From Octopus sinensis (Eukaryota), in contig NW_021832987.1 of assembly GCF_006345805.1 (NCBI RefSeq), positions 1 through 59,304 on the forward strand: a stretch of DNA of 59,304 nucleotides, in the 5' to 3' direction. Under the pieces are notes generated by a model. That model was not told the DNA's origin, searched no databases, and saw only the letters and a list, made by a program, of their open reading frames with translations. Shown one piece after another: positions 5,739-59,304 of this stretch. Numbering within the stretch: position 1 is the first letter of the stretch; each line of letters begins with the position of its first letter. Both the position numbers and the translations under genes were made by a program.

Positions 5739-5751
5739 TATAATGTGTGAC

Positions 5752-5869
5752 GCTTACAGCACCTAGGTTTCCCAAGCGGTCATTCATCTAAGTACTAACT
5801 AGGCTCAACATAGCTTAACTTCGATGATCGGATGAGAACCAGTGCTTTCAACGTGATATGGCCGTAATA
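5752..5869 (-). pseudogene. 5S rRNA: 5S rRNA pseudogene (solitary, diverged)
   Basis: The reverse complement reads TACGGCCATATCACGTTGAAAGCACTGGTTCTCATCCGATCATCGAAGTTAAGC...GTTAGTACTTAGATGAATGACCGCTTGGGAAACCTAGGTGCTGTAAGC, a full-length 5S match. The C box is altered (GATGAAT vs GATGGGT) and there is no oligo-T terminator. Confidence 0.9.
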
Positions 5870-6525: not shown

Positions 6526-7145
6526 AAGGCGGCGAGCTGGCAGAAACGTTAGCATGTCGGGCGAAATGCTTAGCGTATTTCGTCAGCCGTTACGTTCTGA
6601 GTTCAAATTTCACCGAGGTCGACTTTGCCTTTCATCTTTTCGGGGTAGATAAATAAAGTACCGGTTATGCACTGGGGTCGATGTAATCGACTTAATCTGT
6701 ATGTCTGGTCTTGTTTGTCCTGTCTGTGTTTTTAGCCCCTTGTGGGTATTAAAGAAATAGGTATTTCTTCTAACCTTACGTTCTGAGTTCAAATTCCGCC
6801 GAGGTCGACTTTGTCTTTCATCCTTTCGGGGTCTATAAATAAAGTACCAGTTATGAACTGGGGTCGATGTAGTCGACTTAGTTCGTTTGTCTGTCCTTGT
6901 TTCTCCCCTCTGTATGTAGCCCCATGTTGGCAATAAAGAAATCAGAAACGTTAGCACGCCGGGCGAAATGCTTAGCGTTACGTTCTGAGTTCCAATTCTG
7001 CCGAGGTGGACTTTGCCGTTCATCTTTTCGGGGTCGATTAAATAAATACCAGTTACGCACTGGAGTCGATATAATTGATTTAATCCGTTTGTCTGTCCTT
7101 GTTTGCTCCATCTGTATGTAGCCCCTTGTGGGCAGTAAAGAAATA
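6526..7145 (+). mobile_element. SINE family B tandem array (~3 body units)
   Basis: Repeated TACGTTCTGAGTTCAAATT...CACTGGGGTCGAT...AGCCCCTTGTGGG...AAAGAAAT units. Confidence 0.85.
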
Positions 7146-23321: not shown

Positions 23322-24078
23322 AAGGCGGCGAGCTGGCAGAATTTCGTACAGCTGGCAGAATTTCGTACAGTTTGAAAGGCGGCGAGCTGGCAGAAACGTT
23401 AGCGTGCCGGGCGAAATACTTAGCAGTATTACGTCCGCCGTTACGTTCTGAGTTCAAATTATATGACGAAAAGAGGCGGCGAGCTGGCAGAAACGTTAGC
23501 GTGCCGGGCGAAATGCTTAGCGGTATGTCGTCAGCCGCTACGTTCTGAGTTCAAATTCTGCCGATGTCGACTTTGCCTTGCGTCCTTTCGGGGTCGATAA
23601 ATTAAGTACCAGTTACGCACTGGGGTAGATGTAATCGACTTAATACGTTTGTCTGTCCTTGTTTGTCCTCTATGTGTTTAGCCCCTTGCGGGCAGTAAAG
23701 AAATAAGTATTTTGTCTGCAGCTACGGTCTGAGTTCAAATTCCACCGAGGTCGGCTTTGCCTGTTATCCTTTCGTGGTCGATTAAATAGGTATCAGTTAC
23801 GCAGTGGGGTCGATGTAATCATCTTAATCCGTGTGTCTGTCCTTGTTTGTCCTCTCTGTGTTTAGCCCCTTGTGGGCAGTAAAGAAATAAGTATTTTGTC
23901 TGCAGCTACGTTCTGTGTTCAAATTCCACCGAGGTCGGCTTTGCCTGTTATCCTTTCGTGGTCGATTAAATAGGTATCAGTTACGGAGTGGGGTCGATGT
24001 AATCAACTTAATGTGTTTGTCTGTCCATGTTTGTCTTCTCAGTGTTTAGCCCCTTGTGGCTAGTAAAGAAATAAGTAT
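23322..24078 (+). mobile_element. SINE family B array with reiterated heads and three tandem body units
   Basis: GGCGGCGAGCTGGCAGAA occurs three times, then ~183-bp body units repeat. Confidence 0.85.
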
Positions 24079-27553: not shown

Positions 27554-27742
27554 AAGGCTTCTCGGCCTTTTAGCTAAGTTGAAAGTGTAGTATCTGTTAT
27601 TATCAGCTTAATATCTGATACGGTCCCTATTTGGGGCCATCGATATTAAATTGATTTTTAGAACGAGGCGAAGAATTAGGGTCTTGCTCCGCCTTTGCCA
27701 CGGGTTAGCCTGGTATTGCAGTGCTTCCAGTATTCAGCCCAT
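27554..27742 (+). ncRNA. U2: U2 snRNA-like copy (divergent, probably a pseudogene or variant)
   Basis: GCTTCTCGGCCTTTT.GCTAAG, branch-recognition GTAGTA (27587-92), stem IIa TATCAG/CTGATA, Sm-like ATTTTTA and loop IV ATTGCAGT. The copy is full length but changed at its 5' end, at GATC->GTTG and at the Sm site. Confidence 0.9.
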
Positions 27743-27768
27743 CTCCCACCCGGGAGATCTTAAGAGAA

Positions 27769-37147: not shown

Positions 37148-37180
<33 letters not shown>

Positions 37181-37379
37181 AGTAGTTGAATGAATTATCC
37201 TAGTATGGATAATTCGGTTAACCGATACCTGGGTAGCAAATTCCCGTAAGAAAACACGGTTGAATCTACATGCTAAGGGCAGAGATCACGTGCTATCGTG
37301 TGGAAATTTGTCTGTTTTTTTTTTACTATAAATAAATGAAAGAATGGAGTCGAACGACGATTTAACAAAATTCCTTTAT

Positions 37380-37460
37380 TCTCGACATATGTTTCGAAGA
37401 CTGCATATTCCTAATTCCGAAGGAATAAGGGGTGCATTATGCCGCCTTCTCATCAGGAAA
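37380..37460 (-). ncRNA. Type I hammerhead ribozyme (Penelope-type minimal stem III)
   Basis: TTTC-CTGATGA-GAAGGC...GTCTTC-GAAAC-ATAT-GTC^GAGA. The core is complete, stem III is the palindrome ACATATGT and the cleavage triplet is GUC. Confidence 0.8.
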
Positions 37461-45654: not shown

Positions 45655-46645
45655 TCTTTTCTATTCTCGGCAGAAAGCCCGGAATATTTGGTGACAGGGG
45701 CCAATCGGTTAGATCGAGCCCAGTAGACAGCTAGTACTTAATTTATCGACCCCGAAATGATGAAATACAAAGTCGACCTCTGCGGAATCGGAACTCAGAA
45801 CGTAGCTACAGATGAAATACTGCTAAGCATTTCGACTAACGTGCTAACTCTTCTTCCCGTTCGCTGGGTTTAAAATATTATTTTCTGCTCTAGGCACAAG
45901 GCCCAATATTTTTGGGGAGGAGGCCAATCGATTAGATTGACCCCAGTATGTAACTTGTACTTAATTTATTGACCCCGAAATGCTGAGATGCAAAGACGAC
46001 CTCGCTGGAATTTGAACTCGGAACGTAGTGTCAGACGAAATACCGCTGGCAATTAGCCCGGCATGATAACGATTCTTTTCTACTCTAGGCACAAGGTTCA
46101 AAATTTTGAGGGAGGAGAGCAGTCGTTTATATCGACGCCAGTACGGGACTGGTACTTAATTTATCAACCCCGAAAGGATGAAAGGTATAGTCGATCTAGC
46201 GGAATTTGAACTCACAACATAGCGGCAGACAAAATACCTATTTCTTTTCTACCCACAAGGAGCTAAACACAGAGAGGACAAACAAGGACAGACAAATGGA
46301 TTAAGTCGATTATATCGACCCCAGTGCGTAACTGGTACTTATTTAATCGACCCCGAAATGATGAAAGGCAATGTCGACCTCGGCGGAATTTGAACTCAGA
46401 AAGTAGCGGCAGACGAAATACCTATTTCTTTACTACGCACACAGAGAGAACAAACAAGGAAAGACAAACGGATTAAGTCGATTACATCGACCCCAGTGTG
46501 TATCTGATACTTAATTTTATCGTCTCCAAAAGGCTGAAAGGCAAAGTCGACCTCGGTGGAATTTGAACTCAGAACGTAGCGGCTGACGAAATACTGCTAA
46601 GCATTTCACCCGGCGTGCTAACGTTACTGCCAGCTCGCCGCCTTT
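45655..46645 (-). mobile_element. SINE family B tandem array (~5 units)
   Basis: Repeated GACCCCGAAA.GATGAAA.GCAAAGTCGACCTC.GCGGAATTTGAACTC units, with the head at 46620-46645. Confidence 0.85.
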
Positions 46646-52364: not shown

Positions 52365-52619
52365 AATATATACATGATTGCTTATTAACTTATATATGTA
52401 TATTTATATATGTATATATATATGTATATATATAGATATATATGCATGTATATATATATATATATATATACAAAAAGCAATAAAGATTCAAGTTAATTTA
52501 AATGAATTTACTTGAATATGGTACATAACTTAGATGCACCAAAAAAAACTATACTGTTTTAACAATACAGTAATGTGGGGTGATTATAAGCGAGAAGGAA
52601 GCAACAAGAATGGATAGGT

Positions 52620-52710
52620 TTTTAGTACAATCGTTTCATACAAGGACAGGCTTTATTAAAAGTTGTAAAAATTACAGCATATAAACGTGTCCCGTACTCA
52701 TCAGCTAAAA
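52620..52710 (-). ncRNA. Type I hammerhead ribozyme (left arm copy)
   Basis: Reverse complement of 55271-55361. Confidence 0.75.
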
Positions 52711-53319
52711 TACATGTGAGTTCTCTAGACATCCTAGTGGTTGAGGCTATACTCATGAAGTAATGTAGATAATTAAGTAACATAAACAGATTTCCAAAGT
52801 TCATTAAAGTTCTTTAAAGATGATGTACAGTCTTATCACAGAATTTTAAAAAAGTTCTAATAGCATCACAGAGAAGGTGACCTAATCCATAGAGCACATG
52901 TGAATTTCCAGAGATATGATGAGGGATTACATACTCACAGAAGACAAATTTATTCATTGTTAATCACAACGAGGTGGGTCTCAATTCCTGCTTATTAGCA
53001 TTACAGAGAGGATGAATTAATCCTTTGTGTAGATGCACAATTTCCAATGGTGTAGATGTAAGTTTCCAGAGAAATGAAGTGGAATTTCATAATCACAGGC
53101 GATAAATTTATCAATGGTTGAACACAATGAGGTAGGTATCAATTCTTGTTATATGATTAGGTATTTGCCACATTAATCACATTACTGCTATTTACAAGAG
53201 GCTGTAGCTATTTAACTCCCAACTTTTAAAGGCTGAACGGCTTTCTAGAGAGGCCAAGAATAGAAAGGGAAGGGAATAGAAGAAAAGAGAGAAAATAAAG
53301 GAGGAGGGAGCAAAAAAAT

Positions 53320-53797
53320 AGGAACCTAAGACATCTACCCAAGAATAATCCAAAGCCTGAAGTTGCTCCTCCTGTGTGTAAGTGTAGAATAAAATCAAAA
53401 TGCCCGGCACCTGGTCTATGTGGGGAAAATAATGTAATCTATAAATGTACCATATCCACGGAGAATAACAAATATCTTTACGTTGGATGTACAATTAATT
53501 TTCTAGCCAGAGTTAGAAATCACATCTCGTCTTTTAAATTACGTCATAAAGCTGGTACCACCACACTTTCAAACAAAATTTGGGAACTCAAAAATAATAA
53601 TAAAAATTATAACCTTAATTGGGAATAGTTAGGAGAGCAATTCCGTATAAAATAGTAGGGTTGGTTGCCAACTATGCTCCATGGAGACGTATGAAATTCT
53701 AAAGCATAGAAAACATAGAAACTTATTGAATAATCATATCGAACTAGGTCAAGTTTGTGTCCACGCTAAATTGAAGACTTTAAAATATTTTAAATGA
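53320..53797 (+). pseudogene. GIY-YIG endonuclease domain of a Penelope-like element (two 1-nt frameshifts)
   Basis: CKCRIKSKCPAPGLCGENNVIYKC..YVGCT..FLARVRNHISSF..TTLSNKIWELK..W/EIVRRAIPY/..CQLCSMETYEI..LLNNHIELGQVCVH..* contains VIY/YVG, the catalytic R, E and N residues and Cys/His motifs. Confidence 0.88.
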
Positions 53798-55270
53798 TTA
53801 GAATATCCGTAACTAGATAGATAGATATAACTTGATTTCTACTAGTATAGCACTGCTTTAAGTAGATAACTAAGAGTTCTCACACTACAGTTATCTTTTT
53901 CCTTATATCTGCATCAGTTTTTTGAGAACAGGGAAATGAATAGTACTTATACGCTGCTTAATTGAGGCTTTATTTAATTTCAAACTCATAATTTTTAAAT
54001 TCTTAATTTAAATCTTAATTGTAATTTTTAATTTTAATTCCTAACTTAATCTAATTTAGTAGCATAACTCTAATAAAATAAAATGAGATACTATAGCCCC
54101 ATAATTCTATTTCAAAATTAAATAAATAAGGCTACCCCCTCGGTGATAATATGATTATCTTCATTATGATAGACAATCCCCTAACACCTTGTAAATGATC
54201 TTCTAAGATTTGACCTGTAGTCCGTCAATGTATGAATAATAACGGCAACTCCTTAAGACAATAAAATGAATAAATTAAATAAGTAAGTTTTATGGACTTT
54301 TTGATAAGATTATACTTAGATTTTCCTAATGTAATTTCTTTTGATTTTAGCATCTGACCCCTAAACCCCTGACTGTGTTATCTCTTTAGATTCTCTTTAA
54401 ATTCATAGCTGATTTCAACAGCAATAAATTAGCTGTTTTACTGGCCAAAGAATAATATTCTCCTCTAGTTCCTAGATGCCTGTAAATTAAAACCAGACTT
54501 GCCGTCTACTAATTCTTCTGTATAACTAGAACCCTCATTTTTATTTTTATTTTTATTTTTTCCCTTCTTTCCCTATTCCTTTCTCTTTTCTCTTTTTTCT
54601 GTTTCTTCTTCTTATTCTCTTTTTCCTTTTCTCTTCTCTTTTAGTCCCCTTCCCCCCCCCCCTTTTTTTTGCTCCCTCCTCCTTTATTTTCTCTCTTTTC
54701 TTCTATTCCCTTCCCTTTCTATTCTTGGCCTCTCTAGAAAGCCGTTCAGCCTTTAAAAGTTGGGAGTTAAATAGCTACAGCCTCTTGTAAATAGCAGTAA
54801 TGTGATTAATGTGGCAAATACCTAATCATATAACAAGAATTGATACCTACCTCATTGTGTTCAACCATTGATAAATTTATCGCCTGTGATTATGAAATTC
54901 CACTTCATTTCTCTGGAAACTTACATCTACACCATTGGAAATTGTGCATCTACACAAAGGATGATTCATCCTCTCTGTAATGCTAATAAGCAGGAATTGA
55001 GACCCACCTCGTTGTGATTAACAATGAATAAATTTGTCTTCTGTGAGTATGTAATCCCTCATCATATCTCTGGAAATTCACATGTGCTCTATGGATTAGG
55101 TCACCTTCTCTGTGATGCTATTAGAACTTTTTTAAAATTCTGTGATAAGACTGTACATCATCTTTAAAGAACTTTAATGAACTTTGGAAATCTGTTTATG
55201 TTACTTAATTATCTACATTACTTCATGAGTATAGCCTCAACCACTAGGATGTCTAGAGAACTCACATGTA

Positions 55271-55361
55271 TTTTAGCTGATGAGTACGGGACACGTTTAT
55301 ATGCTGTAATTTTTACAACTTTTAATAAAGCCTGTCCTTGTATGAAACGATTGTACTAAAA
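55271..55361 (+). ncRNA. Type I hammerhead ribozyme (right arm copy)
   Basis: TTTTAG-CTGATGA-GTACGGGACA...TGTCCTTGTAT-GAAAC-GATT-GTA^CTAAAA. Stem I is 6 bp, stem II is long and the GUA cleavage site is at 55355. Confidence 0.75.
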
Positions 55362-55415
55362 ACCTATCCATTCTTGTTGCTTCTTTCTCGCGTATATATA
55401 TATATATATATATAT

Positions 55416-57804: not shown

Positions 57805-58555
57805 ATGTGTGGGGGGAGCAGTGTGTAAACGGATGTATGCATTGTATAATTTGCAATAAAATATGTTTCTTGAAATATATCTCCATACAGCAGAGAGTTT
57901 TAGAAGAATGGATGAAGTAAAAACAGAATAAACGTGAGTCAAATGCAGATAAAACACCAAGAGAAAATTGAGAGAAGAAAACAACAAACACAATAGAATA
58001 TTCTTTTAAAAACATGATGGATCTATTCTATTGTAAGAATTTGAATGCAATCAACCATGTGAATTTTCTTTAAGAGATGCTGTAATATATCAAGAAGAAA
58101 ATTACATCATTTCAAAAATTATGACAAGTAACTCAAATTTCGATGACGAACAACGGAGGTCTGGCTAAAAGGAAATAGAGGCTGTACCACACAATTACTC
58201 GTACACATATAAATAGGAATTACAACCGTGTTTCGTGGTCTGCTACCACAACCGCTCCTTTATAGGATCCAGTTAGCTCAAGACATCCTCAGGAGGAACC
58301 ACGTCCGGTTTCGGCCCCTACCCCTCTAACATTTTGACGTGCCCCCCCCCCCCTTTCCGAGGTGTCTTCAGCTCTGGGGTTGGGTGCATGTAGGTGTATT
58401 TGCGAGCCTCATGTTTAAATGAGAAATGTGAATATAACTATACATGCTCAAGCATTGATTTACTGCGACAGGCATTGACACATACACACACGTATGTATG
58501 TATGTGTATATATGTATGTGCGTATGTGTATTATATATATATATATATATAATAT

Positions 58556-58657
<102 letters not shown>

Positions 58658-58662
58658 GTGTG

Positions 58663-59304
58663 TATATTGACAGGGCAAGACTGCTAGGTAGTCGGCCGCA
58701 TGCTAGAAATAGATCATCAACTATCAAACTAAAAGAAAGTTCTCTAGAGGAAAAATTCAGCGAACACCAGAAACAAATTGGGTGGCCAGGACAGATGAAA
58801 ATTTATATAAAACAGAATTAATTGCATACCTCGGTTTCGGCCTTTAACAAAAGAATTACTTACATAATTCAAATGTCCGTGGCCTCATCAGTACAATCCT
58901 TCAGTGTAAATGCAATCCGCAAAATTAACCCCAGCTTTCTGTGCCAAAACAGTCGCGTGTTTAGTTTTACCGATTACATTAGGGATAAAATTTCAAATGT
59001 CCTAGTTCCGGCGCGCTAAAAGATTCCTAAAGCGAAGAACTGCAGTAAATAATTCACTGCGGTTAGTGCTTGCTACTAGAGAACGTATTTATTTCAATAT
59101 TTAAATAATGAGGGAGATAAATTAATATTAATTTTAATATCAATTTAAAACCAGTAGTCTAGCATACAAAAAATCTGAAAAATCAGGGAAAATTCTAATA
59201 CATGTATATATTGACAGGGCAAGACTGCTAGGTAGTCAGCCGCATCCTAGAAATAGATCATCAACGATCAAACTACAACGAAAGTTCTCTAGAGGAAAAA
59301 TTCA
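58663..59304 (-). mobile_element. 544-bp repeat unit carrying a hammerhead (Penelope pLTR or retrozyme-like), running off the window end
   Basis: TTGACAGGGCAAGACTGCTAGGTAGTC... occurs at 58667 and again at 59211. Confidence 0.8.
58821..58897 (-). ncRNA. Type I hammerhead ribozyme
   Basis: ATTGTA-CTGATGA-GGCC...GAATTAT/GTAATTC...GGCC-GAAAC-CGAG-GTA^TGCAAT has a complete core, a 6-bp stem I and a GGCC stem II. Confidence 0.85.

What the first reader, a model, noticed from the sequence alone, without database searches (positions are those of the whole stretch)
58663..59304. 544-nt repeat unit with a canonical hammerhead: candidate cephalopod retrozyme or pLTR
Seen: a direct repeat with period 544 (58667/59211) contains a complete type I hammerhead on the minus strand (58821-58897), has no recognisable protein, and starts in (TA)n. 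Established: non-LTR retrozymes are tandem non-coding units with one hammerhead each, cut to monomers that can circularise and are thought to be mobilised by PLEs. Inference: if the array continues past the window, cleavage would release ~544-nt monomer or circular RNAs.
Basis: partly seen in the sequence, partly recalled or inferred. Interest (0 to 1): 0.75.

Follow-up and report, generated by a model that had tools for sequence, protein, structure and literature searches.

The report
Penelope-carried hammerhead retrozyme, 545-base unit
This is one copy of a scattered family of 545-base non-coding repeats that each carry a conserved hammerhead ribozyme motif and are likely pasted into TA microsatellites by Penelope-type jumping-gene enzymes, a known kind of genomic parasite whose self-cutting and RNA circles are untested here.

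Summary
Confirmed. Window 58667-59210 is a non-coding unit followed by 94 nt of a second copy, with a type I hammerhead motif at 58897-58821 (minus strand). The window is the whole contig, so nothing downstream can be read. The genome answers instead: a dispersed subfamily (227 exact hits of a 17-mer) within a wider family (1,335 hits of a tail motif; sister subfamilies about 70-80% identical). The hammerhead core is kept and its stems change in compensating pairs (11 of 20). The whole unit folds strongly (z -5 to -6). No copy examined is joined to an ORF, so this is not an ordinary pLTR. Insertions carry Penelope-like (PLE) footprints: (TA)n targets, variable 5' ends, inverted arms, and two fixed 3' ends 114 nt apart, used one each in 58 of 58 two-arm insertions with two fixed ends. 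Autonomous Hydra-clade PLEs in this genome show the same long one-sided tail; they are the likely, unproven helper. Cleavage, expression and circles are untested. Verdict: new member of the non-LTR retrozymes. The scan found similar families earlier on other DNA.

The parts
58532..58658 (.). (TA)n/(TG)n microsatellite; insertion target, at the 3' end of the hammerhead-sense RNA
   Evidence: 58532-58655; 187 of 203 fixed ends in the family abut TA/TG tracts
58659..58667 (-). Fixed end B (tail-less end); inferred reverse-transcription start site; TATA microhomology blurs the exact base
   Evidence: 86 of 220 arms start at unit positions 1-21; the direct repeat extends back to 58659
58667..59210 (-). 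One full 544-nt non-coding unit, 35% GC, 23 differences from the family majority; predicted branched-rod RNA
   Evidence: fold z -5.14, 0 of 100 shuffles as stable
58821..58897 (-). Type I hammerhead motif: 6-bp stem I, long stem II with a GUAA-loop hairpin, 2-bp stem III; predicted cut 58827/58826
   Evidence: covariation over 41 copies of three subfamilies
59097..59210 (-). 114-nt 'tail' between fixed ends A (about 59097) and B; two predicted hairpins then a short single strand. Internal in this copy, terminal in most others
   Evidence: 117 of 220 arms start at unit positions 415-445; 22 contigs of run X15 leave the unit into (TA)n at 59097; folds
59211..59304 (-). Partial second unit, cut by the contig end; its hammerhead, if present, would lie beyond the window

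Best explanation
This is one copy of a dispersed, protein-less repeat family whose 545-nt unit carries a conserved hammerhead motif and which is likely copied into (TA)n microsatellites by the reverse transcriptase/endonuclease of a Penelope-like element, probably of the Hydra clade. Shown: unit, motif, dispersal, no joined ORF in the copies examined, TA targets, 5' truncation, inverted arms, two fixed ends. Inferred: a tandem copy is transcribed on the hammerhead strand; the PLE protein binds the structured RNA, cuts (TA)n and starts cDNA inside the RNA at site A or site B; when both DNA ends are extended one uses A and the other B, and the two cDNAs join head to head. The template is continuous across the cut site (a circle or an uncut multimer). 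Untested: self-cleavage, monomer release, ligation to a circle.
For: Dispersal: 43 near-full matches at 90-100% identity (window included) among 40 scored candidates; 137 and 227 exact motif hits, 0 for reversed controls. Anatomy of 136 elements from 161 loci: 74 have arms in both orientations; of 66 two-arm cases 58 are A+B, none A+A or B+B, 8 have an arm without a fixed end; 187 of 203 fixed ends abut TA/TG. Arms of one insertion share non-majority variants at 2.3-3.7% of sites against 0.5% between loci. Hammerhead: 91.8% of cells paired, 11 of 20 pairs with double changes (5 of 6 in stem I), slid controls 28-39% paired. Whole-unit fold z -5.1, -6.0, -5.8 in three subfamilies against +1.15 for an equal-length PLE 3' end. 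A purified PLE starts cDNA at two internal sites that delimit the tail and extends both strands (PMC11167929). ORFs with the Hydra motifs RWK, DKT and CxCX5C occur here; Hydra-type copies have long-stem-II hammerheads, TA targets and 125-160-nt tails on one arm only, while a Neptune-like family has a 34-nt tail and a minimal hammerhead. 38 of 48 arms that reach position 141 pass the cut site.
Against: No sequence parent was found: 60 loci of two autonomous families gave no match to the unit apart from a family copy inside one locus. Among 20 further loci the only non-family match is a weak tail likeness to one Hydra subfamily (66% over 111 nt; shuffle p 0.003-0.05 for L389/L397, mostly not significant for the other 7 tails; 36 comparisons). 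Only 6 of 128 elements hold two complete hammerheads in one arm. No 5' end falls exactly at the cut. The 12-unit sister array has units 6-13% apart with internal subgroups, which a single rolling-circle pass does not explain simply. Long-range helices show few double changes (7 of 96 pairs). In the one tested PLE, hammerhead cleavage was not needed for insertion. 8 of 9 Xenopus retrozyme dimers did not cleave in vitro.
Confidence: 0.85

Rival explanations
1. Ordinary pLTR plus tail of an ORF-bearing PLE whose body lies beyond the contig end.
For: The contig ends 94 nt into the second copy. Truncated PLE 3' ends with hammerheads are common: two lie in this window. Not all PLE families of the genome were surveyed.
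Against: Upstream of the hammerhead (RNA sense) the sequence returns to its own tail and to end B, in the window and in all long copies. PLE protein matches beside 3 of 56 and 2 of 54 arms are separate neighbouring insertions, in most cases seen to lie beyond a TA tract or other DNA. The same ORF-less unit persists in subfamilies about 70-80% identical.
Confidence: 0.04
2. Non-autonomous PLE derivative copied from linear, uncut tandem transcripts; the hammerhead acts at another step or is a passenger, and circles play no part in transposition (a variant of the best explanation).
For: 38 of 48 arms read through the cut site. Uncut RNA was the main substrate of the anole PLE in vitro. Hammerhead-less Naiad/Chlamys elements also form tandems and inversions. 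The 12-unit array is heterogeneous.
Against: Successive passes within one arm show no recurring polar differences across 38 loci, so there is no sign of a fixed diverged master dimer. The motif and the whole-unit fold are conserved across subfamilies. Arm ends are over-represented 3-19 nt short of the cut in one sample, though this was not reproduced.
Confidence: 0.4
3. Satellite or segmental-duplication DNA spread at the DNA level, with a chance or relic hammerhead.
For: Some local duplication exists: L021 units are 0-0.8% apart and share 11 rare variants including a GUG at the cut triplet; L012/L013 lie in a duplication of more than 7 kb.
Against: Polar 5' truncation, two fixed ends, the strict A+B rule, TA targeting and different flanks on many chromosomes; compensatory stem changes.
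Confidence: 0.03

Closest known systems
Metazoan non-LTR retrozymes (Cervera and de la Pena 2020, PMC7229834: passages and sections 14, 17 read; Li, Clavereau and Pollet 2026, 10.64898/2026.07.22.740005: parts 1-3 of 5 read)
   Same: Non-coding, low-GC tandem unit with one type I hammerhead; 2-bp stem III with a tetraloop as described for invertebrates (a sister subfamily has the 1-bp palindromic type); strongly self-paired RNA; monomers, dimers and multimers; PLEs in the same genome.
   Different: 545 nt, above the 170-400 nt of the 2020 paper but inside the 51-972 bp range of the 2026 survey. Mostly 0.3-1.5-unit dispersed insertions with inverted arms and two fixed ends, which the parts read do not describe. 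No matching pLTR parent found, unlike 24 of 57 Xenopus families. Cleavage and circles untested.
Hydra-clade Penelope-like elements (Craig et al. 2021, PMC8557442: passages, section 11, and the supplement row for Hydra-1_Obim read)
   Same: (TA)n target, canonical 3' hammerhead, 5' truncation, inverted 5' arm, tail on one end only. Local Hydra-type copies have 125-160-nt tails with a similar predicted two-hairpin layout.
   Different: No ORF and no clear sequence homology. The 114-nt tail is about three times the published 30-40 bp.
Poseidon PLE of Anolis (PAc; Frangieh et al. 2024, PMC11167929: parts 1-2 of 4 read)
   Same: Two internal cDNA start sites delimit the tail; both DNA strands are extended; AT-rich targets.
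   Different: Autonomous, other clade, short tail. The one-A-one-B pairing seen here is not stated in the parts read.
Non-autonomous Chlamys elements such as MRC1 (passages in 10.1101/2021.04.23.441226 and PMC8557442)
   Same: ORF-less PLE passengers with head-to-tail insertions at microsatellites.
   Different: Mostly no canonical hammerhead; they resemble their helpers at the 3' end; green algae.

Membership tests
Non-LTR retrozyme | Type I hammerhead in each unit | tested here: met
   39 of 48 copies spanning the motif keep both core halves; covariation; 9 same-strand motifs in the L307 array
Non-LTR retrozyme | Tandem units with at least two consecutive hammerheads | tested here: met
   Met by the family: 6 of 128 elements and L307. 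Not testable for this copy (contig end)
Non-LTR retrozyme | No protein-coding capacity; GC below 50% | tested here: met
   Longest frame 65 codons, GC 35%; no joined ORF
Non-LTR retrozyme | Self-cleavage to unit-length RNA | not testable with these tools
   Needs a cleavage assay; genomic 5'-end test inconclusive
Non-LTR retrozyme | Expressed as linear and circular monomers | not testable with these tools
   Only assembled contigs of runs of uncertain type were available
PLE-mobilised element | 5' truncation, partial tandems, inverted 5' arm, tail at one end only | tested here: met
   74 of 136 with inverted arms; 58 A+B, 0 A+A, 0 B+B among two-arm cases
PLE-mobilised element | Microsatellite target bias | tested here: met
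   187 of 203 fixed ends
Passenger of a Hydra-clade PLE | Terminal sequence shared with a named autonomous family | tested here: inconclusive
   Weak colinear tail match to L389/L397 only; none to the other families sampled
Autonomous PLE (pLTR of) | RT plus GIY-YIG ORF joined to the repeat | tested here: not met
   this copy's own far side is unreadable
LTR retrozyme (plant type) | Type III hammerhead within LTRs | tested here: not met
   Motif is type I and units are head-to-tail

The most novel reading that the evidence does not exclude
The unit is a long-lived, viroid-like 545-nt RNA circle that has kept its fold and ribozyme through at least four subfamilies without any ORF-bearing parent. 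It mimics the two-hairpin tail of Hydra-clade PLEs, so that a PLE dimer primes cDNA from both ends of a cut (TA)n site, one at A and one at B. That would be a direct genomic record of how an animal ribozyme circle is written into DNA, and a compact substrate for testing it.
Probability: 0.3. Interest if true: 0.62.

Novelty: new member of a known kind. Interest (0 to 1): 0.36.

Why it matters
PLE mobilisation of animal retrozymes was proposed from co-occurrence and pLTR similarity (PMC7229834; 10.64898/2026.07.22.740005). This family adds an insertion footprint: two fixed ends matching the two-start-site chemistry shown for one PLE, used strictly one each in mirror-image insertions. That makes a simple in vitro test possible. 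No paper describing a cephalopod retrozyme turned up in five searches; Repbase and Dfam could not be searched. The class is known and the scan has met several such families, so the interest is moderate.

Tried and rejected
Downstream sequence: unavailable (contig end); a search with the upstream flank found no allelic or overlapping copy among 40 scored candidates. Rfam: no hammerhead hit. RNA: no RNA holder listed. Contigs of four runs guessed to be RNA lie on the unit but show no joints, strand or ends and are not shown to be RNA. One 577-nt contig of run X18 (kind unknown) closes on itself with period 545; tandem DNA would do the same. 5' ends at the cut site: 10 of 48 arms (8 loci) end at unit 141-161 and 0 of 38 at 162-182 (nominal p 1e-4), but none end at 158-161, the stretch is TA-like, and an unrelated peak lies at 50-70. 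In sister subfamilies 5 of 14 arms end in the matching bin against 3 of 17, 6 of 23 and 10 of 33 in the bins before it, after removing 14 mis-chained short arms (the chaining failed for two subfamilies). Inconclusive. A-to-I edits written into DNA: no signal (5 of 27 shared against 15 of 184 unshared variants, p 0.09; A>G and U>C rates equal; 7 outlier loci left out). Co-mobilisation with the Hydra ORF beside L012/L013: a segmental duplication. Parent search among autonomous families; only the best-scoring families were reachable. Phage collection: no match. Searches used mis-registered structure strings and are discarded; timed out.

Full report
Observation. Unit 58667-59210 is followed by 94 nt of a second copy at 94.7% identity. 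The minus strand holds a type I hammerhead motif at 58897-58821 with the predicted cut between 58827 and 58826; 0 of 100 shuffles gave a strict hit. Rfam misses it. There is no frame above 65 codons and GC is 35%. The window is the whole contig, so the continuation cannot be read, and no allelic copy was found.

The family. A genome search gave 43 near-full matches at 90-100% identity, the window included, on many chromosomes. Exact 19- and 17-mers hit 137 and 227 times with empty controls, so this subfamily (S1) has a few hundred insertions, a median 3.7% from the family majority. A degenerate tail motif hits 1,335 times and reveals sister subfamilies: S2 and S3, about 70-80% identical over the whole unit with the same length and layout, and S4, seen only as partial copies. 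Most insertions are under 1.5 units. L021 has 3.5 units and the S2 locus L307 about 12.

Insertion anatomy. From 161 loci I kept 136 elements after removing identical sequences (128 after also merging same-structure pairs). In hammerhead sense every arm has a variable 5' end and usually one of two fixed 3' ends: B at unit position 1 (86 arms) or A near position 431 (117 arms); 17 arms have neither. 187 of 203 fixed ends abut TA/TG tracts. 74 elements have arms in both orientations. Of the 66 with exactly two arms, 58 pair A with B, none pair A with A or B with B, and 8 have an arm without a fixed end. Some arm pairs cover non-overlapping parts of the unit (L103, L107, L128), so the second arm is not always a fold-back of the first. 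Arms and passes within one insertion share variants more than copies from different loci do. This is the PLE pattern of partial tandems, inverted 5' copy and one-sided tail. A purified PLE starts cDNA at two internal sites that bound the tail and extends both strands, which gives a ready mechanism for A and B.

The ribozyme is conserved as a structure. Across 41 copies of S1-S3 the core is nearly invariant, 91.8% of cells pair and 11 of 20 pairs show double changes; slid controls pair 28-39%. These cells reflect a few subfamily-level events, not 94 independent ones. Stem III varies among 2 bp plus tetraloop, 3 bp, and 1 bp with a palindromic loop. The whole unit folds far better than shuffles in all three subfamilies tested, unlike a PLE 3' end of equal length, and the hammerhead forms in the linear and circular minimum-energy folds of the window unit. 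Double changes in the consensus fold of the whole unit are few (7 of 96 pairs), so the long-range helices are predicted, not proven.

pLTR or retrozyme. No S1 arm leaves the unit into shared or coding sequence. PLE protein matches near 3 of 56 arms are separate neighbours. The same holds for 96 tail-anchored arms of all subfamilies. The plain-pLTR reading is therefore unlikely, although this copy's far side is unseen.

The helper. Autonomous families here include Hydra-type ORFs (RWK, DKT, CxCX5C) and a Neptune-like ORF. Hydra-type copies have long-stem-II hammerheads, TA targets and 125-160-nt tails on one arm only; the Neptune-like family has a minimal hammerhead and a 34-nt tail. The 114-nt tail fits the Hydra pattern. 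Its predicted two-hairpin layout recurs in several Hydra tails, and it aligns weakly but colinearly with one subfamily (L389/L397; p 0.003-0.05, 36 comparisons). This is a lead, not an identification. No family showed clear homology. A Hydra family from an octopus with (TA)n preference is listed in the supplement of Craig et al.; I did not compare its sequence.

Circle or linear template. 38 of 48 arms read through the cut site, so the usual template is a circle or an uncut multimer. Passes within an arm differ by 2.5% with no recurring polarity over 38 loci (6 outlier loci left out), which fits repeated copying of one template. Against a simple circle: the 12-unit array is heterogeneous, and the anole PLE preferred uncut RNA. 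The pile-up of ends just short of the cut was not reproduced. I put circle involvement in transposition near even.

Verdict. A real, non-autonomous, hammerhead-bearing PLE passenger that meets every non-LTR retrozyme feature testable from sequence. The class is published for other animals. Five literature searches found no cephalopod description; the giant squid genome paper only counts 235 hammerhead matches. Earlier scan notes describe similar families of other unit lengths with the same two-end rule, but none matched this sequence; my A+B count preceded those look-ups. New member of a known kind, interest 0.36.

Noticed in passing
window 52470-55396: Truncated Hydra-type PLE insertion: GIY-YIG fragment at 53320-53625, hammerheads at 55277-55355 (+) and 52704-52626 (-), a 733-nt inverted arm carrying a ~120-nt tail, TA at both ends. 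The family has near-identical copies and open frames up to 947 aa elsewhere.
   Followed up: yes
window 37180-37456 (-): 3' end plus tail of a second Hydra-type PLE family with a long-stem-II hammerhead, ending in (TA)n; resembles the 3' ends of L385/L386/L398.
   Followed up: partly
window 58215-58391: Very high-copy 177-nt repeat with two CUGANGA motifs and GAAACCGG on the minus strand; possibly another PLE end.
   Followed up: no
L311 8158-8200; L312: Neptune-like PLE (811-aa frame) with a minimal hammerhead whose core reads UUGAAAA and a 34-nt one-sided tail; a tandem junction shows the tail is the start of the next copy. That the U3-A8 core is a known variant is recalled.
   Followed up: partly
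L307 1385-8320 (G000:C2): About 12-unit array of sister subfamily S2 with an inverted arm, TA at both ends and a nested foreign insertion; units 6-13% apart.
   Followed up: partly
L021 3758-5692: 3.5-unit S1 array; the full units are 0-0.8% apart and all carry GUG at the cut triplet, predicted inactive; local duplication or assembly effect.
   Followed up: partly
L340: Inversion junction falls at the apex of the hammerhead stem II hairpin, suggesting a snap-back switch in this copy.
   Followed up: no
window 27554-27747 (+) and 5751-5869 (-): U2 snRNA and 5S rRNA matches above Rfam gathering scores; likely gene copies or pseudogenes.
   Followed up: no
window 6571-7145, 23523-24078, 46267-46594: Tandem arrays (173-202-nt period) of a common SINE-like repeat.
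   Followed up: no
run X18, record 25, laid on window 58740-59284: A 577-nt contig from another organism label closes on itself with period 545 and 45 differing letters; run type unknown, so circle and tandem DNA cannot be told apart.
   Followed up: no
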